Positions 35,216 to 40,012 of a DNA stretch of 40,024 bases are shown in pieces. The notes under the pieces were generated by a model, which did not search any database, had not been told where the DNA came from, and was given only the letters and a program-made list of their open reading frames with translations. The stretch's first letter is position 1. Each line of letters starts with the position of its first letter. The stretch is from a virus: UHGV virus genome UHGV-0210832. One strand, given 5' to 3'. The position numbers were made by a program, and so were the translations under genes.

Positions 35216-37323
35216 GTTTACCAGAGGGATTTGTTCTGGATGAACAGCCTGATAACTCACAGCTTCCTGATGGCTTTGTGCTTGATGCCCAACCAGAACA
35301 GCAGCAATCTCCTTTGGTTTCACCAGAGGAAAATTCCAGACAGGAAAATGTTGTTAATAATGCTAACGGTTTCGACCGTTTTATGTATGGCGTTCTCAGT
35401 GGATTGATGGATGTTGGTAAAGGTGTTGGTCTATTTCAGGATATGACACCAGAAGAGCAAGCCGCAATTCAGTCTCTACAGCAGAAGTTAGCGGCAAAAC
35501 CATCAACCGCACAAGATGTTGGTGAGTTCGTTGGACAAGCAGCACCATTTGTTAGTGGTGGTGGGATTATTTCTCAGGTTCCGAAAGGGGCGGCAAGGCT
35601 GGCTGCCGCCGCAGGGCTTGGTGCTGGAGAAGGGGCTATTGTAGCCAATGGAACAAATAGCGATGTTGCTTCTGGAGCTGCTATTGGCGCTGTGGCTGGC
35701 CCTGTAGCAGAGATTGTTGGTCCAGCTCTTGGGAAGATTGCAGGAAAAATTAAAAATAGTGCCGGAGATATTTATCGCTCATCCGTAGGGATGGGGAGTA
35801 AATCATCTAAAGCAACGTTAAAGAAAGCTGCTGGCGCAATGGACAATAAATTTATCGGCGGCCAACGAGCTATTCAAGATTTCGCCGATGAAGTTAATCC
35901 TGATTTTAACGCGATAAATGCTATTCGTGAGCTAGAACTGGAAAATTATGCCACTCCAGGCATGATCTCTAATAATCCTGCTGTCAGGGCTCTTGATAAT
36001 GCAGTGGCAAGTCTCCCTGGAACAGAGATTAGTGAGGCGCATAAGCGTTTTATTACTGAATTAGGAAGAAAAGCTGATGAAATGATAACTTCATTTGGGG
36101 GAAGCCTTGATAAGCAACTGGTTTCTGACAGGCTTGCAGATAATTTTGATAAAACCATTTCATCATTACAAAATCAGTCAGATAACATCTACAACAAAAT
36201 TGCCGAAAAGGTTCCTGTAAGAGACCGGATTGAGGCAACTAATACATTGAATTTTTTAGAGGATTTTGCTGATGATATAGGTGGAATTGATGAATTATCT
36301 CCAATAATGAAGCGGACATTGAACCGACTTGATCCAAACACCTTGCCAACGTATGGGCGTTTAGATCTCGCTAGAAAGCAGGTTGGACAAGCTATTGGCA
36401 AAGGCTCTGGTCCATTCAAGGATGAAGAAACAGGTGTTCTTAAAAAGTTATATGCAGCCATAACAGATGACCAACAGGCTGTCGCAGAAAAATATGGCGC
36501 AGGGGAATTATGGACGCTTGGTAAGGAGTTGGTAAAAAAACGAAAATCCATTGAAGATGATGCTGTAACCGTCTTGGGTAGAAAACTTCAGCAATCAGCA
36601 ATTCCAAAAGTTGAAAGTGCTGTTGTTAATATGGCAAAAGGAAACGGTGGCGACTTTAGGCAATTAATGAAGTCGATTCCAAAGGATATGCGGCAGGAAG
36701 TTGCGCTCACCTCAATGAATAAAGCATTTACCAGCTATGCCAAATCACCTGGTCAGCAATTAGGAGTTGATGGATTTGTAAAATGGTATAACGGAATGTC
36801 ACGCAATGGGGCCAATATGAAGGCTCTCCGTGATGCTATTGGCACAGATGCATCAAAGCGCCTTGATACGATTTATCAAGCAGCTAAGGCTATGAATAGA
36901 CTCAATACTGGTAAGCAGTATGCTAGTAGTCTTGTGGATCAGCAAGTTAATAACTTTCTGAAAGAAAAGGGTAGTCTCGCAAAAATTTATGGAATAGCCT
37001 CAAAAGCTGCTGCGGCGGAAGGTATTACAAGCTTATCTGGTCTTCCTGGTGTAGGTGCAACAGGGGTGATAACGTCAGCATTGATGTCAGGGAAAACAAG
37101 TAGGATAAAGGCTGCTGATGCTCTACTGTCTTCTCCTGAGTTTAAATCAATGCTATTTCGCCTGCAAAACGCACCAGTAGACAGAGCAGAAGTGAGACGC
37201 GCAATAGAAAGGAAACTGATGCAATCTGGGGCATTTAAGAGATGGGAGAAAACCTTATCAACAGATGAAGCAAAAACCATTGCCCGCACGGGGATTATTA
37301 CATGGCTCGCTAGTGACAGTTAG
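35200..37323 (+). CDS. Ejection (DNA transfer) protein, P22 gp16-like
   Basis: 707 aa, last gene of the rightward morphogenesis block; contains Gly/Ala-rich hydrophobic segment (AAAGLGAGEGAIVANG...AIGAVAGPVAEIVGPALG). Confidence 0.6.
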   Translation: MATNVGLPEGFVLDEQPDNSQLPDGFVLDAQPEQQQSPLVSPEENSRQENVVNNANGFDRFMYGVLSGLMDVGKGVGLFQDMTPEEQAAIQSLQQKLAAKPSTAQDVGEFVGQAAPFVSGGGIISQVPKGAARLAAAAGLGAGEGAIVANGTNSDVASGAAIGAVAGPVAEIVGPALGKIAGKIKNSAGDIYRSSVGMGSKSSKATLKKAAGAMDNKFIGGQRAIQDFADEVNPDFNAINAIRELELENYATPGMISNNPAVRALDNAVASLPGTEISEAHKRFITELGRKADEMITSFGGSLDKQLVSDRLADNFDKTISSLQNQSDNIYNKIAEKVPVRDRIEATNTLNFLEDFADDIGGIDELSPIMKRTLNRLDPNTLPTYGRLDLARKQVGQAIGKGSGPFKDEETGVLKKLYAAITDDQQAVAEKYGAGELWTLGKELVKKRKSIEDDAVTVLGRKLQQSAIPKVESAVVNMAKGNGGDFRQLMKSIPKDMRQEVALTSMNKAFTSYAKSPGQQLGVDGFVKWYNGMSRNGANMKALRDAIGTDASKRLDTIYQAAKAMNRLNTGKQYASSLVDQQVNNFLKEKGSLAKIYGIASKAAAAEGITSLSGLPGVGATGVITSALMSGKTSRIKAADALLSSPEFKSMLFRLQNAPVDRAEVRRAIERKLMQSGAFKRWEKTLSTDEAKTIARTGIITWLASDS

Positions 37324-37547
37324 TCAACTTTGGTTATTTTGCCTTCTTTTTCTTGATGAACTTTGCATCCATCATCTTTTGATAGCCAAACTAAAAACTT
37401 TAAAACCTTAAACACAAGTACGGCTACTGCAATGAAAGCACCAATTGCAATTATTGCAAGCGAAATTATTTGCATTGGTGCTTTTAATGCAGGGAAAATA
37501 GTGTAAATGATCGCGAAAACAGTAATTATGAGGAACCATCGCTTCAC
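37320..37547 (-). CDS. Small membrane protein (75 aa, 2 predicted TM helices)
   Basis: GTG start with AAGGAGG RBS 5 nt upstream; hydrophobic WFLIITVFAIIYTIFPAL and IISLAIIAIGAFIAVAVLVF. Confidence 0.45.
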   Translation of the reverse strand: MKRWFLIITVFAIIYTIFPALKAPMQIISLAIIAIGAFIAVAVLVFKVLKFLVWLSKDDGCKVHQEKEGKITKVD

Positions 37548-37577
37548 ACCAACCTCCTTAGTTTTGAGCAGGATACC

Positions 37578-37943
37578 ATGAAAAAAGTTAACATTGGAAA
37601 CGTACCAAAGATGCTCGTTCCGCTCTTTGAGAGCGGTACAATTGTGTTTTGTAGAGACTTTCCAGAATGGCAACGCCTGCATCAAAAACTTGGCGTTGAC
37701 GTGCATGACTCGGACGCCAACGGAGCGTCTCATACAATGAGTAGCGAGAATGGTGTTTTGCATGTGATAGGCGTGTTCAATGGCAAACTATCTACTATTG
37801 CCCATGAGTGCGCTCACATGGCATTCGATATCTGCTCAAGGGTAGGTGTTGATGTTGAACCAGGAAGAGCCAACGAGACTTACTGCTACTTAATGAGCAG
37901 GCTTGTTGAGTTCTGCGAGCGACATATCAAAAAGCCGGAGTGA
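37578..37943 (+). CDS. Small HExxH-motif protein (putative zinc metallopeptidase-like), 121 aa
   Basis: Motif IAHECAHMAF (H-E-x-x-H) in a soluble-looking 121-aa protein; AGGA RBS. Function inferred from the motif only. Confidence 0.45.
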   Translation: MKKVNIGNVPKMLVPLFESGTIVFCRDFPEWQRLHQKLGVDVHDSDANGASHTMSSENGVLHVIGVFNGKLSTIAHECAHMAFDICSRVGVDVEPGRANETYCYLMSRLVEFCERHIKKPE

Positions 37944-37956
37944 CCCGGCTTGATTA

Positions 37957-38181
37957 TTACTTTTTTTGGTATGTTAAGAATGGCAAGTCGCCAGTGTACC
38001 CCAAGCGGAAAAGCTCCAATTGCTTATCTCTTATGGATAAAAAATAATCGTTTCTTGCCTTTTTAAGCCACAACCAGCCGATCATCAAGATGAATAATAT
38101 TGATATTATTGGCATCGGGGAGATCAACACCACTCCGATGAATAATGACGCTAGCAGCACCGATAAAATAGCAGAAATCAT
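37957..38181 (-). CDS. Small membrane protein (74 aa)
   Basis: Two hydrophobic helices (ILSVLLASLFIGVVLI and IISILFILMIGWLWL); sits where P22 carries superinfection-exclusion functions. Confidence 0.45.
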   Translation of the reverse strand: MISAILSVLLASLFIGVVLISPMPIISILFILMIGWLWLKKARNDYFLSIRDKQLELFRLGYTGDLPFLTYQKK

Positions 38182-38206
38182 ACTAATCTCCCACTAAGGT
38201 AACAAT

Positions 38207-38392
38207 ATGACCATAGAAGAACGCCTGAACAACATTGAATTGAATCAAACCTTGCTTGACCAGCGCCTTTCAGATCTTGAGCTTAAAGATCTTGATGCGC
38301 AAATATCAGAAGCAGAAGCCAAGCTCTCCAGCTTAAACCACCGCAAGAAGCAAATCCGCAACAGAATTACTCAGGGACGCGGAAGCTGTTGA
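38207..38392 (+). CDS. Small predicted coiled-coil protein (61 aa)
   Basis: AAGGT RBS 6 nt upstream; heptad-like LNNIELNQTLLDQRLSDLELKDLDAQISEAEAKL; 3' end overlaps convergently with the next minus-strand ORF, so uncertain. Confidence 0.3.
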   Translation: MTIEERLNNIELNQTLLDQRLSDLELKDLDAQISEAEAKLSSLNHRKKQIRNRITQGRGSC

Positions 38393-38576
38393 GGTGGGAT
38401 GCTAGGTCTCTATCGTTAAAATCAAGGCTGCTAATCATTTCATTGTAAATGGCGTTTTTATCTTCCATTGGCAGCCTTGAGTAAACCAGACACAGAGCAT
38501 ATTTCAGGGAGTTTAGCTCTTTCTCTAGATCTTCCTTGCTTGACGTTTTTGACTTAATAAACTGTTTTTTATTCAT
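38367..38576 (-). CDS. Hypothetical protein (69 aa) translationally coupled downstream of mnt
   Basis: ATGA overlap with the mnt stop. Confidence 0.45.
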   Translation of the reverse strand: MNKKQFIKSKTSSKEDLEKELNSLKYALCLVYSRLPMEDKNAIYNEMISSLDFNDRDLASHLNSFRVPE

Positions 38577-38809
38577 TTTGCATCCTTACCATACATGGTT
38601 TTCAGTGTTTCAAGCAGCGCATCCCTGAATTTGTCAGCCTCTTTCTGAGCAAATTCATTGCTATTAAGCGATCTACCACAAACAGCATCTTCGATAATCT
38701 GTATTATTTCAGCATTCATGGAACGCTTATTATGTTGCGCCCTGGCTTTAACCTTTGCCTTTAACTCTTTGGAAATCCTGATATTTATTTGCGGCTCTTC
38801 GCGTGACAT
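38573..38809 (-). CDS. mnt: Mnt-like ribbon-helix-helix repressor
   Basis: 78 aa; N-terminal QINIRISKELKAKVKARAQHNKRSMNAEIIQIIEDA matches the Arc/Mnt RHH pattern (P22 Mnt FNFRMPMEVREKLKFRAEANGRSMNSELLQIV, from memory). Confidence 0.75.
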   Translation of the reverse strand: MSREEPQINIRISKELKAKVKARAQHNKRSMNAEIIQIIEDAVCGRSLNSNEFAQKEADKFRDALLETLKTMYGKDAK

Positions 38810-38897
38810 ACCACCTCCATAGCATTTTGGTGATATTACTATTGCATCACTGCGATCACAATGGTATAACGGTTATACCAAATTGATTGGAGGTAAT
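38810..38897. promoter_or_regulatory. Divergent mnt/arc-ant control region (probable Omnt/Oarc operators and promoters)
   Basis: 88-bp AT-rich spacer between divergent mnt and arc containing the dyad tggtataaccgttataccaa; operator identity is by analogy to P22 immI. Confidence 0.45.
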
Positions 38898-39071
38898 ATG
38901 ATAGTCAAGTCAGACGCACCAAAGTACCCTTTGCGCATCCCATTAGAGGTTAAGTTAGCAATCGAGAAGTCAGCGAAAGAAAATGGTCGCTCAATAAATA
39001 CCGAGATGGTAATGCGGTTAGTGGATAGTTTAAGGCGGGATAGTTCTAAAGGTAATCTAGCAAAAAGTTGA
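38898..39071 (+). CDS. arc: Arc-like ribbon-helix-helix repressor
   Basis: Start at MIVKSDAPKYPLRIPLEV (ATG 38898) with GGAGGT RBS; RHH core PLEVKLAIEKSAKENGRSINTEMVMRL resembles P22 Arc. Confidence 0.7.
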   Translation: MIVKSDAPKYPLRIPLEVKLAIEKSAKENGRSINTEMVMRLVDSLRRDSSKGNLAKS

Positions 39072-39133
39072 AGCCCCAACTGCGGTAACAGTCAGGGCTT
39101 CGGTATCAACAAATCGGATTAGGAAATATTGAC

Positions 39134-40012
39134 ATGAAAAGTATAGCAAAGGCACAAAACGATTTCACCATCTTCAAATTCGGCGACAGTGAAATCCGCG
39201 TCATCAACAAATGCGGTGAGCCGTGGTTTGTAGCAAAAGATGTTTGTGATGCTTTAACCCTGACTAACTCACGCAAGGCGCTTACTGCACTTGATGACGA
39301 TGAAAAGGGAGTAACTTTAAGTTACACCCTTGGTGGTGAGCAGAATCTAAGCATTGTTAGCGAATCAGGTATGTATACATTGGTTCTGCGCTGCCGCGAT
39401 GCTGTCAATAAAGGTTCGGTCCCGCACAAATTCCGCAAGTGGGTAACAGCAGAAGTTCTACCTTCAATTCGCAAACATGGCGAGTATGTGAAAGGCAAGA
39501 AAACCACTGTTGAGGAAAGAACGCCGCTACGCGATGCAGTAAACATGCTGGTAGGAAAGAAAGGACTTCGCTATGACGATGCATACAATATGGTTCATCA
39601 GCGTTTTGGTATTGACAGCATTGATGAACTTTCAATTGAACAAATCCCGCTGGCCGTAGAGTACATCCACAGGGTAGTGCTTGAAGGCGAGTTTATCGGC
39701 AAACAAGAGAAGAAAACCAACGAGCTTTCTGCAAAAGAAGCAAACAGCCTTGTATGGTTATGGGATTATGCCAACCGTTCACAGGCATTATTCCGCGAAC
39801 TGTATCCGGCGCTAAAACAAATTCAATCGAACTATTCCGGCAGATGCTACGACTACGGTCATGAGTTCTCGTATGTTATCGGAATGGCGAGAGACGTTTT
39901 AATAAACCACACACGAGATGTTGATATTAATGAGCCAGACGGACCAACGAATCTTTCCGCATGGATGAGACTTAAGAATAAAGAATTACCTCCTTCAGTA
40001 CATAACTACTGA
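39134..40012 (+). CDS. ant: Antirepressor Ant (Bro-N/AntA N-terminal domain)
   Basis: 292 aa; N-terminal [45 protein letters not shown] is a classic Bro-N/Ant pattern; follows arc as in P22 immI. Confidence 0.8.

What the first reader, a model, noticed from the sequence alone, without database searches (positions are those of the whole stretch)
37320..38576. Small-gene cluster between the ejection genes and mnt, including an HExxH protein
Five short genes in mixed orientation occupy the interval where P22 carries sieA: two membrane proteins (75 and 74 aa), a 121-aa soluble protein with an H-E-C-A-H motif, a 61-aa coiled-coil ORF and a 69-aa gene coupled to mnt. A small HExxH protein next to membrane proteins could be a protease-based exclusion, anti-defence or toxin-type module; I do not recognise it as a known immI-region gene.
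Basis: partly seen in the sequence, partly recalled or inferred. Interest (0 to 1): 0.6.

Follow-up and report, generated by a model that had tools for sequence, protein, structure and literature searches.

The report
Known P22 hkcC: putative zinc protease
The HExxH protein is HkcC, a named but uncharacterised gene of phages P22 and HK620; it belongs to a large phage family of tiny putative zinc proteases, and the small genes around it are independently swapped cassettes, not one module.

Summary
All five ORFs and the H-E-C-A-H motif are present as described. The interval is the left half of a P22-type "ant moron" (immI region); mnt, arc, sar RNA and ant follow it.

The 121-aa protein is HkcC. 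It is 99% identical to the HK620 and P22 proteins, and the literature lists it as "unknown".

It belongs to a large phage family (517 clusters at 50% identity). Across 118 relatives of 22-74% identity, only H76, E77, H80 and E100 are invariant. This is the thermolysin-type HExxH plus Glu at +20. A confident model puts them on two consecutive helices after a small beta-sheet. Fold matches to solved zincins are weak.

Polymorphism is 29 synonymous to 3 non-synonymous. The long antisense ORF is not coding.

HkcC always lies on the late-operon strand. In divergent relatives it sits just upstream of the terminase genes. I therefore infer late lytic expression. Its substrate is unknown.

The cluster is not a unit: among 86 loci with near-identical HkcC, only the window has all five genes.

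The 75-aa membrane gene uses the conserved sieA promoter, ribosome-binding site and GTG start, as do at least nine unrelated cargo genes elsewhere.

Verdict: a known gene of unknown function and a moderately interesting putative protease family. It is not an exclusion or toxin module.

The parts
37320..37547 (-). p75: 75-aa two-transmembrane protein in the sieA slot (GTG start at 37547, Shine-Dalgarno AAGGAGG at 37553-37559)
   Evidence: PHROG 7294 matches full length at E 1.8e-48. Hydropathy. It shares its promoter, Shine-Dalgarno sequence and GTG with sieA, hkcB and other genes, and the sequences diverge right after the GTG. It lacks the SieA motif FxRYPxEAxxFNK (PMC10883804).
37578..37608 (-). 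Sequence homologous to the annotated P22 PsieA promoter, embedded in the first 31 nt of hkcC and firing leftward into p75
   Evidence: P22-pbi annotates 'P sieA' at the equivalent position. The stretch is invariant in the 4-locus alignment. Promoter activity in this phage is inferred, not tested.
37578..37943 (+). hkcC: 121-aa soluble putative gluzincin-type zinc metallopeptidase
   Evidence: 99% identical to HK620 and P22 HkcC. PHROG 1365 at E 1.7e-39. 517 family clusters. 29 synonymous to 3 non-synonymous polymorphisms. AlphaFold2 model with pLDDT 89.3.
37803..37817 (+). Codons for H76-E77-C78-A79-H80, the HExxH motif on predicted helix 71-88
   Evidence: H76, E77 and H80 are invariant in 118 sequences of 22-74% identity. 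Helix assignment.
37875..37877 (+). Codon for E100, the proposed third metal ligand, at the start of predicted helix 100-116 and 20 residues after H80
   Evidence: It is the fourth and last invariant column. Thermolysin residues 135-180 align to profile positions 73-118, stretches of equal length.
37932..37951 (.). Bidirectional intrinsic terminator (P22 t-mnt / HK620 tORF59A homologue); the hkcC stop codon lies in its loop
   Evidence: Terminator scan finds it on both strands. Annotated in P22 and HK620. Conserved across the recombination joint.
37957..38181 (-). p74: 74-aa hydrophobic ORF occupying the orf59a slot; last ORF of the mnt-strand transcription unit; coding status uncertain
   Evidence: Not homologous to Orf59a. 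Found in 14 of 86 loci, always together with p61. Orphan: 4 clusters at 92% identity or more. No PHROG match. Not annotated by PGAP.
38207..38392 (+). p61: 61-aa charged coiled-coil-type protein on the late-operon strand
   Evidence: PHROG 7586 matches 61 of 61 positions at E 3.3e-44. 23 synonymous to 14 non-synonymous changes, 22 of 36 variable sites at codon position 3, no stops. The XhlA hit is far below threshold.
38367..38576 (-). p69: 69-aa soluble protein translationally coupled to mnt (4-nt ATGA overlap)
   Evidence: PHROG 16466 at E 1.8e-50. 5 synonymous to 3 non-synonymous changes, 6 of 8 variable sites at codon position 3. In other prophages this slot holds a 105-aa protein or a ClpP-like protein.
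38573..38809 (-). mnt-like Arc/ribbon-helix-helix repressor (context)
   Evidence: Pfam Arc PF03869 at E 6.8e-13.
38883..39071 (+). arc-like repressor (context); the likely true start is ATG 38909, after GGAGG
   Evidence: Pfam Arc at E 2.6e-12. Sequence.
39066..39132 (-). sar antisense RNA (context)
   Evidence: Rfam RF00262, 72.7 bits against a gathering score of 43, E 1.5e-14.

Best explanation
The interval is the variable left half of a P22-type ant moron. It holds five independently exchanged cassettes that belong to two transcription programmes.

(1) hkcC
- hkcC encodes a soluble protein of about 120 aa.
- Its only family-wide invariant residues are His-Glu-x-x-His and a Glu 20 residues further on. 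This is the metal-binding and catalytic signature of thermolysin-type (gluzincin) zinc metallopeptidases.
- I infer that it binds zinc through H76, H80 and E100, and uses E77 as the general base to hydrolyse a peptide bond in a cytoplasmic target.
- It lies on the late-operon strand, only 30 nt from the divergent upstream gene, so there is no space for a conserved promoter.
- I therefore infer that late-operon RNA polymerase reading from gene 16 towards the tailspike gene transcribes it, and that it acts late in lytic growth.
- The substrate is unknown. A host defence or housekeeping protein seems most plausible.

(2) The minus-strand genes are expressed from the prophage.
- p75 uses the conserved sieA promoter, Shine-Dalgarno sequence and GTG start in place of sieA. 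It is most likely an envelope-acting lysogenic-conversion or exclusion protein.
- p69, and p74 if it is real, ride on the mnt transcript up to the shared terminator.

(3) p61 is a second small gene on the late strand.

Shown here: gene identity, conservation, selection, mosaicism and genomic position. Inferred: zinc binding, proteolysis, timing of expression and target.
For: Identity
- 98% nucleotide and 99% protein identity to hkcC of HK620 and P22.

Family and motif
- 517 clusters at E<=1e-3.
- In 118 sequences of 22-74% identity, the only invariant columns are H76, E77, H80 and E100.

Structure
- The model has pLDDT 89.3, with strands at 11-13, 21-25, 49-56 and 59-66.
- It has a helix at 28-37, a helix at 71-88 that carries HExxH, and a helix at 100-116 that starts with E100.

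Similarity to known zincins
- All 11 weak sequence hits to solved structures are zinc metallopeptidases, including thermolysin over an equal-length stretch.
- The Foldseek top hit is the SPRTN protease.
- 26 viral models match at E<1e-3, some of them named SprT-like or metalloprotease.

Selection
- 29 synonymous to 3 non-synonymous changes.

Late-strand position
- P22-like ant moron.
- Between the lysis genes and the small terminase gene in epsilon34, ST64T and mEp044.
- Between the tail chaperone and tape-measure genes in siphovirus prophages.
- In divergent loci, the first large ORF downstream is the large terminase subunit in 24 of 50 and the portal protein in 7 of 50.
- Late-operon RNA polymerase reads through the ant moron (PMC2629481).

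Mosaicism and the shared expression socket
-.
Against: - No Pfam, NCBIfam or PADLOC family match for the window protein.
- The SprT-like Pfam signal in relatives covers only the HExxH helix.
- Metal binding, catalysis and expression timing are all untested. I had no model coordinates to measure ligand geometry.
- A promoter for hkcC inside the variable upstream cassette cannot be excluded. One weak sigma-70-like site lies at 37313-37340, but the number of such sites in the region is no higher than chance.
- hkcC is absent from many P22-like phages, so it is dispensable, and nothing here points to a substrate.
Confidence: 0.62

Rival explanations
1. HkcC and the flanking small membrane proteins form one prophage-expressed module. 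A protease acts with a membrane partner as a superinfection-exclusion, abortive-infection or toxin system.
For: - The genes are adjacent.
- The sieA slot next door holds a proven exclusion gene in P22 (PMC10883804).
- p75 and p74 are hydrophobic.
Against: - Near-identical HkcC is paired with at least nine unrelated upstream genes and three downstream states.
- 56 of 86 loci lack all four of the window's other genes.
- In most of the family HkcC-like genes sit beside terminase genes, with no membrane neighbour.
- hkcC is on the opposite strand to the prophage-expressed genes.
- No PADLOC hit.
Confidence: 0.05
2. HkcC works as one half of a conserved two-gene cassette with the convergent 59-aa Orf59a. 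For example, it could be a late protease that removes or processes a prophage-expressed partner. In that case the window carries an orphan HkcC whose partner has been replaced by p74.
For: - The hkcC > terminator < orf59a arrangement is present in 68 of 86 P22-like loci.
- It is present in all five looked-up homologues of 43-63% identity. Three are siphovirus prophages with the cassette between tail genes; one is a prophage contig with other neighbours; one is a short metagenome contig.
- It is present in 4 divergent viral loci.
Against: - Only 4 of 80 divergent family loci have an Orf59a-like neighbour.
- The ST64T, L and epsilon34 paralogue lacks it.
- HK620 keeps an intact HkcC beside an orf59a pseudogene.
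- The window and 13 other loci replace orf59a with p74.
- The linkage could simply reflect the shared terminator of a compact mobile unit.
Confidence: 0.15
3. HkcC is a phage counter-defence protease. Made late, it cleaves a host immunity protein, for instance a sensor that is triggered by late structural or packaging proteins.
For: - Accessory and dispensable, yet under strong purifying selection.
- Spread almost unchanged between Salmonella and E. coli phages whose neighbouring genes differ.
- Found in the late operon next to terminase, portal, tail or ejection genes.
Against: There is no direct evidence. I found no similarity to any characterised anti-defence protein and no paper describing such an activity. 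The argument rests on position alone.
Confidence: 0.2
4. HkcC is a minimal SprT/Wss1-like DNA-associated protease that clears proteins from replicated phage DNA before packaging.
For: - 19 of 118 relatives give weak SprT-like Pfam hits, the best at E 1e-4.
- The Foldseek top PDB hit is SPRTN.
- The family typically sits immediately upstream of the terminase genes.
- Longer members carry Lys-rich basic C-terminal tails suggestive of nucleic-acid binding.
Against: - The SprT-like similarity covers only the HExxH helix and is below the Pfam threshold: 14.5 bits against 25.6.
- The invariant third residue is Glu. From memory, SprT, SPRTN and Wss1 use a third His.
- The window protein has no basic tail.
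- The SPRTN hit has E 0.2 and TM-score 0.30.
Confidence: 0.1
5. The HExxH...E residues serve a non-proteolytic role. They could form a structural metal site, bind a ligand, or catalyse another kind of hydrolysis, so the protein would not be a peptidase.
For: - No significant fold match to any peptidase.
- The protein is very small for an enzyme with a substrate cleft.
- Zincin-like folds with non-protease activities exist (general knowledge).
Against: - Invariance includes E77, the catalytic base, and not only the three ligand positions.
- The predicted strand-helix-helix layout matches the zincin catalytic core.
- Every weak sequence hit in the PDB is a metallopeptidase.
Confidence: 0.12

Closest known systems
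HkcC of coliphage HK620 (AAK28904 / NP_112089) and the hkcC ORF of Salmonella phage P22
   Same: It is the same gene. Protein identity is 99% and nucleotide identity about 98%. The length, position between gene 16 and mnt, strand and downstream bidirectional terminator all match.
   Different: The neighbours differ. P22 has sieA upstream and orf59a downstream. HK620 has hkcB upstream and an orf59a pseudogene downstream. The window has p75 upstream and p74 downstream. No function is reported for any of them (PMC2629481, PMC4837284).
Thermolysin-type gluzincins (zinc metallopeptidases with HExxH plus a downstream Glu ligand, e.g. families M4, M3, M9)
   Same: - HExxH lies on a helix.
- An invariant Glu opens the next helix exactly 20 residues after the second His. 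This is the same spacing as thermolysin H146-E166 (my knowledge, consistent with the equal-length alignment).
- An N-E dipeptide sits at the Glu ligand.
- A beta-sheet precedes the active-site helix.
   Different: - At 121 aa it is about a third the size of those catalytic domains.
- No sequence or fold match is significant.
- There is no signal peptide or propeptide.
- Activity is untested.
SprT-like family (Pfam PF10263; SprT / SPRTN / Wss1 DNA-protein crosslink proteases)
   Same: Both are small zincin-type domains. 19 of 118 relatives give weak hits. SPRTN is the top Foldseek PDB hit. Two viral structural neighbours are named SprT-like.
   Different: - The window protein has no hit, and the family consensus scores 14.5 bits against a cutoff of 25.6, over the HExxH helix only.
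- The third invariant residue is Glu rather than His.
- There is no zinc ribbon or DNA-binding module.
ST64T Orf129 / phage L Orf129 / epsilon34 gp70
   Same: They are paralogues at 38-40% identity with the same HExxH...E motif, and they also lie on the late-operon strand.
   Different: They are located between the lysis genes and the small terminase gene. They overlap the following gene, annotated 'head decoration protein', by 1 nt. They have no Orf59a partner.
P22 SieA (inner-membrane superinfection-exclusion protein), as a comparison for p75
   Same: The slot, promoter region, Shine-Dalgarno sequence and GTG start codon are the same. Both are predicted membrane proteins.
   Different: p75 has 75 aa and two hydrophobic segments. 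SieA has 162-164 aa or more and three or four. p75 lacks the FxRYPxEAxxFNK motif and shows no sequence similarity to SieA (PMC10883804).

Membership tests
HkcC / PHROG 1365 | Full-length sequence similarity to HK620 HkcC and the PHROG 1365 profile | tested here: met
   PHROG 1365 at E 1.7e-39, covering residues 1-121 against profile 3-120 of 127. tblastn gives 99.2% identity to HK620 and P22.
Zincin / gluzincin metallopeptidases | HExxH motif conserved and located on an alpha-helix | tested here: met
   H76, E77 and H80 are invariant in 118 sequences. They lie in predicted helix 71-88, where block pLDDT is 94-96.
Zincin / gluzincin metallopeptidases | Third metal ligand is a Glu on the following helix, about 20 or more residues after the second His | tested here: met
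   E100 is invariant. It lies 20 residues after H80 and is the first residue of predicted helix 100-116. Its role as a ligand is inferred.
Zincin / gluzincin metallopeptidases | Significant structural similarity to a solved zincin catalytic domain | tested here: inconclusive
Zincin / gluzincin metallopeptidases | Zinc binding and peptide-bond hydrolysis | not testable with these tools
   This needs purified protein, metal analysis and activity assays.
SprT-like (PF10263) | Score above the Pfam gathering threshold over the domain | tested here: not met
   The window protein has no hit at E<=1. The family consensus scores 14.5 bits against a cutoff of 25.6, over profile positions 63-78 only. 19 of 118 relatives give weak hits, the best at E 1e-4.
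ImmA/IrrE (peptidase M78, PF06114) | Profile match to the M78 domain | tested here: not met
   There is no Pfam or NCBIfam hit. The family is not among those matched by 118 relatives. Only low-probability Foldseek hits reach viral models named IrrE.
Known anti-phage defence systems (PADLOC-DB v2) | Match of any of the five proteins to a defence-system component model | tested here: not met
   HkcC, p74 and p69 have no hits. p75 and p61 give only chance-level hits (E 0.052 to a 4TM effector; E 7e-4 to a coiled-coil part of PbeC).
SieA superinfection-exclusion proteins (types A-C) | About 160-200 aa, three or four transmembrane segments, cytoplasmic motif FxRYPxEAxxFNK | tested here: not met
   p75 is 75 aa with two hydrophobic segments and no such motif. 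The criteria come from PMC10883804.
SieA superinfection-exclusion proteins (types A-C) | Location between genes 16 and 9, expressed from PsieA | tested here: met
   The position is the same. The promoter region, Shine-Dalgarno sequence and GTG are identical to P22. Expression itself was not tested.
Haemolysin XhlA (PF10779), for p61 | Score above the Pfam gathering threshold | tested here: not met
   14.1 bits against 34.7, E 0.056. The RefSeq 'XhlA family' protein of 92 aa equals p61 plus an N-terminal extension of 31 residues.
Moron (independently expressed insertion in a late operon) | Variable presence among related phages, with its own promoter and terminator | tested here: inconclusive
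   Variable presence and the terminator are met (PMC2629481). hkcC has no conserved promoter, because only 30 nt separate it from the divergent gene. The promoter scan is at chance level.

The most novel reading that the evidence does not exclude
HkcC represents a large, uncharacterised family of phage minimal gluzincins of about 120 aa. There are 517 clusters at 50% identity, and no Pfam family covers them. The gene is co-transcribed with packaging and virion genes. Its product could be a dedicated late protease: either a new class of counter-defence enzyme that destroys host sensors of late phage proteins, or a DNA-associated protease that clears proteins from DNA before packaging. Because the gene is present in P22 itself, the idea is directly testable in a model phage.
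Probability: 0.2. Interest if true: 0.65.

Novelty: new member of a known kind. Interest (0 to 1): 0.4.

Why it matters
P22 is one of the best-studied phages, yet hkcC has been carried in its annotation as "unknown" for more than 20 years.

- **A testable hypothesis.** The gene belongs to a widespread phage family whose only invariant residues are a thermolysin-type metal and catalytic site. That gives a concrete hypothesis, a late-expressed zinc protease, which simple P22 genetics can test.
- **A conserved insertion point.** The sieA promoter, Shine-Dalgarno sequence and GTG form a fixed point behind which many unrelated small envelope-protein genes are swapped exactly after the start codon. 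This marks a place to look for new exclusion or lysogenic-conversion functions, p75 among them.
- **A correction.** The appealing "protease plus membrane protein module" reading is an artefact of adjacency in a hypervariable region.

Tried and rejected
- **Family libraries.** Pfam, NCBIfam and PADLOC scans of all five proteins gave no family above threshold, apart from Arc for the flanking repressors.
- **Sequence search of solved structures.** The close-homologue profile gave nothing. The wide profile gave only sub-significant zincin hits.
- **Related-locus search.** A search with the 118-sequence alignment failed because no stretch was conserved enough. Two narrower alignments worked.
- **Neighbouring metallopeptidase.** hhalign of the HkcC family against the PF18894 'PhageMetallopep' gene gave a probability of 1.6%, so the two are not related beyond the motif.
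- **Domain fusions.** Longer family members showed only basic, low-complexity C-terminal tails and no informative domain.
- **Literature.** 'hkcC' appears in only two phage papers, both listing it as unknown. Searches for SprT-like anti-defence proteins and for phage metalloproteases found nothing relevant. The P22 deletion study did not remove hkcC on its own.
- **Promoter scan.** It was at chance level.
- **Rejected: the 147-aa antisense ORF as the real gene**.
- **Rejected: p61 as an antisense artefact**.
- **Rejected: hkcC conserved only as DNA for the promoter and terminator.** Polymorphism falls at third codon positions across the whole ORF.
- **Rejected: p74 as a diverged Orf59a**.
- **Rejected: p75 as a short SieA**.

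Full report
**1. What is at these coordinates**

The window is a P22-like (Lederbergvirus) prophage. Gene 16, a DNA-transfer protein, ends at 37323.

- p75, 37320-37547, minus strand
- a 121-aa ORF, 37578-37943, plus strand
- p74, 37957-38181, minus strand
- p61, 38207-38392, plus strand
- p69, 38367-38576, minus strand

A complete immI set follows them:
- an mnt-like ribbon-helix-helix gene (38573-38809, minus strand) and an arc-like gene (Pfam Arc)
- a sar antisense RNA (Rfam RF00262, 72.7 bits)
- an antirepressor gene starting at 39134

**2. Which ORFs are real genes**

I compared the window with about 85 related loci and classed each polymorphism by codon position.

| ORF | Synonymous : non-synonymous | Note |
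|---|---|---|
| 121-aa ORF | 29 : 3 | 26 of 28 variable sites at codon position 3 |
| p61 | 23 : 14 | no stops |
| p69 | 5 : 3 | |
| p75 | 6 : 6 | none at codon position 2 |
| p74 | 0 : 2 | only two variable sites |

- p74 has a good Shine-Dalgarno sequence (GGGAG) and a hydrophobic N-terminal half. However, only four near-identical clusters exist in 5.8 billion proteins, it has no PHROG match, and RefSeq does not annotate it. Its status stays uncertain.
That stretch shows 1 synonymous, 17 non-synonymous and 1 stop change, and it carries stops in 4 of 85 loci.

**3. The HExxH protein is HkcC**

Megablast finds window 37545-37965 at about 98% identity in P22, HK620 and some 60 other phages.
- HK620 annotates this ORF as hkcC, 'unknown'.
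- P22-pbi leaves it unannotated, between the sieA promoter and the mnt terminator.
- tblastn gives 99.2% protein identity.

Two papers name hkcC, and both list it as a P22/HK620 gene of unknown function (PMC2629481, PMC4837284). It matches PHROG 1365, 'unknown function'.

**4. A large family with a gluzincin signature**

A profile search of 1.84 billion representative proteins found 517 clusters at E<=1e-3 and 143 at E<=1e-10.
- In an alignment of 118 members of 22-74% identity, mean column identity is 13%.
- The only invariant columns are H76, E77, H80 and E100.
- The family motif reads GVF(D/N)G..(S/T)TLxHExxHxxF ... NE(A/T)(F/Y)CYLL.

An AlphaFold2 model built from 20 homologues is confident: pLDDT 89.3, pTM 0.83. 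It shows a small beta-sheet and one helix, then helix 71-88 carrying HExxH, then helix 100-116 starting at E100.

HExxH on one helix and a Glu at the start of the next, 20 residues after the second His, is the arrangement of thermolysin (H142, E143, H146, E166; my knowledge). The wide profile aligns thermolysin 135-180 to profile 73-118, two stretches of equal length, though at a non-significant E of 1.5.

External support for the fold is weak but points one way:
- All 11 sub-threshold sequence hits in the PDB are zinc metallopeptidases.
- Foldseek's top PDB hit is the SPRTN protease at E 0.2.
- 26 viral predicted structures match at E<1e-3. Nearly all are uncharacterised; two are named SprT-like and one metalloprotease.
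- 19 of 118 relatives give weak Pfam SprT-like hits, but the consensus matches only the HExxH helix at 14.5 bits against a cutoff of 25.6.

I therefore file HkcC as a zincin-type, gluzincin-like protein. I do not file it as a member of SprT-like or ImmA/IrrE. Zinc binding and proteolysis are inferred.

**5. When is it made?**

hkcC is on the late-operon strand.
- Only 30 nt separate its ATG from the GTG of the divergent p75 gene.
- Those 30 nt, plus the first 31 nt of hkcC, correspond to the annotated P22 sieA promoter and leader.
- The sequence further upstream differs completely between phages, so no conserved hkcC promoter can exist.
- The promoter scan is at chance level.

The wider family shows the same strand preference:
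- The 38-40% paralogue (ST64T and L Orf129, epsilon34 gp70) lies between the lysis genes and the small terminase gene.
- The mEp044 homologue lies after the lysis genes.
- Homologues of 57-63% identity in Klebsiella, Rosenbergiella and metagenomic siphovirus prophages lie between the tail chaperone and tape-measure genes.
- In 55 non-redundant divergent viral loci, the gene is on the same strand as the downstream genes.
- In those loci, the first ORF of 380 aa or more downstream is a large terminase subunit in 24 of 50, a P22-type portal in 7 of 50 and a tape-measure protein in 1 of 50.
- The immediate neighbours include 18 small-terminase-family proteins.

I infer late lytic expression. This argues against a prophage-expressed exclusion or toxin role.

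**6. The cluster is not a unit**

Among 86 loci whose HkcC is at least 95% identical:
- 56 have none of the window's four other genes.
- Only the window has all of them.
- The downstream slot holds orf59a in 68, p74 in 14, an orf59a pseudogene in 2 (HK620) and nothing in 2.
- The upstream slot holds at least nine unrelated families. These include SieA (164 aa), HkcB (109 aa), p75, and proteins of 62, 68 (YobH-like), 99, 106, 129 and 149 aa. Most are membrane-anchored or carry a signal peptide.

The recombination joints are sharp:
- Four loci with four different upstream genes share identical sequence through the hkcC 5' end, the Shine-Dalgarno sequence AAGGAGG and the GTG, and they diverge at the next base.
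- The exact 15-mer AAGGAGGTTGGTGTG is present in 56 of 82 loci. ORFs of 62-164 aa start at that GTG.
- On the other side, homology with P22 ends at the last two Lys codons and the stop of orf59a or p74, which keeps the bidirectional terminator at 37932-37951.

In 5,426 complete E. coli genomes, 384 carry part of the region and none carries 80% of it in one piece. Rapid flux of the ant moron has already been described (PMC2629481).

**7. The other genes**

- **p75.** It matches PHROG 7294 and has two transmembrane segments. It occupies the sieA socket but is not a SieA: it is too short and lacks the FxRYPxEAxxFNK motif. By position, it is most likely a prophage-expressed envelope protein. An exclusion function is a guess.
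- **p69.** It matches PHROG 16466 and is translationally coupled to mnt. In other prophages the same slot carries a 105-aa protein or a ClpP-like protein.
- **p61.** It matches PHROG 7586 and is a charged coiled-coil protein on the late strand. The RefSeq 'XhlA family' label belongs to a 92-aa ORF that is p61 plus an upstream extension. The Pfam XhlA score is far below threshold.

None of the five proteins matches a PADLOC defence model convincingly.

**8. Mechanism and alternatives**

The best-supported reading is that HkcC is a late-transcribed, cytoplasmic, zinc-dependent hydrolase. It is most likely a peptidase, acting on an unknown host or phage protein independently of its neighbours.

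Sub-hypotheses I cannot separate:
- a counter-defence protease
- a SprT-like DNA-associated protease linked to packaging, which is suggested by the terminase adjacency and by Lys-rich tails in longer members
- a functional tie to Orf59a

On the Orf59a tie: the hkcC > terminator < orf59a cassette is conserved at 43-100% HkcC identity, in both podovirus and siphovirus prophages. However, it is present in only 4 of 80 divergent loci. It is also already broken in HK620 and in this window.

**9. Verdict**

The gene is the known hkcC. The 'module' is an artefact of adjacency in a hypervariable region.

What is modestly new is the assignment of HkcC to a large, unnamed family of minimal gluzincin-like phage proteins that typically sit at the head of packaging operons. 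In the literature I could search, I found no paper that notes this.

Noticed in passing
L001 1534-2092 (P22); L010 6001-6563; L012 6001-6556; L013 6001-6526; L015 6001-6565; L016 544-1131; also L121, L147, L149, L178: hkcC and the convergent 59-aa orf59a, separated by a bidirectional terminator, travel together as a compact two-gene cassette. The pairing holds at 43-100% HkcC identity. It occurs in P22-like podovirus prophages and inside the tail-gene modules of siphovirus prophages. Orf59a gives a weak YjzC-like Pfam hit (E 0.005, below threshold).
   Followed up: partly
window 37545-37608 and equivalent positions in L001, L002, L007 and 56 of 82 related loci: There is a conserved expression socket made of the sieA promoter region, Shine-Dalgarno AAGGAGG and a GTG start codon. 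Behind it, at least nine unrelated small genes of 62-164 aa are exchanged exactly after the start codon. Most encode membrane or secreted proteins. The conserved GTG also favours the 164-aa start for P22 SieA, which PMC10883804 calls uncertain.
   Followed up: yes
L009 2429-2965 (-) and L008 3703-4020 (-): The gene slot translationally coupled to mnt is itself variable. The window has p69 there. One E. coli prophage has a 178-aa protein annotated 'ATP-dependent Clp protease proteolytic subunit', and another has a 105-aa protein with no Pfam match.
   Followed up: no
L108 5007-6017, L110, L118, L122, L159, L162, L138; L016 544-1965: In several divergent phages the HkcC-like gene is followed, 4 nt later or after an orf59a-like gene, by a 212-aa PF18894 'putative phage metallopeptidase' that also carries HExxH. 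That gives two different putative zinc proteases in tandem just upstream of the terminase genes. hhalign shows no relationship beyond the motif.
   Followed up: partly
Proteins P0066, P0073, P0136, P0158 (family members of 173-189 aa); L006 4001-4585 (mEp044_72): Longer members of the HkcC family carry Lys/Glu-rich, strongly basic C-terminal tails, or an alanine-zipper-like tail in mEp044. This suggests nucleic-acid binding or oligomerisation. The window protein has no such tail.
   Followed up: no
L002 1913-2092 (-) (HK620): The HK620 counterpart of orf59a ('hkcD') has an in-frame stop at codon 18, so it is a pseudogene. The adjacent hkcC is intact.
   Followed up: yes
L179 2331-2609 (+); L003 1909-2187 (Kapi1_061): The 92/93-aa ORFs annotated 'hemolysin XhlA family protein' or 'CDD:XhlA' consist of p61 plus an upstream extension of 31 residues. 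They are probably over-extended gene calls, and the XhlA label is not supported by the Pfam score.
   Followed up: partly
window 39066-39132 (-), with a promoter-like site at 39168-39140 (-) and a terminator at 39101-39070 (-): There is a full-length sar antisense RNA (Rfam RF00262, 72.7 bits) between arc and ant, with matching promoter-like and terminator-like sites. The immI regulatory circuit of this prophage therefore looks complete.
   Followed up: yes
window 38883-39071 (+): The mechanical ORF for arc starts at TTG 38883. An ATG at 38909, preceded by GGAGG, is the more likely start and gives a 53-aa Arc.
   Followed up: no
L004 3001-3794; L005 3001-3794: The HkcC paralogue (epsilon34 gp70, ST64T Orf129) overlaps the start of the following gene, annotated 'head decoration protein', by 1 nt. 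This suggests translational coupling of the two.
   Followed up: no
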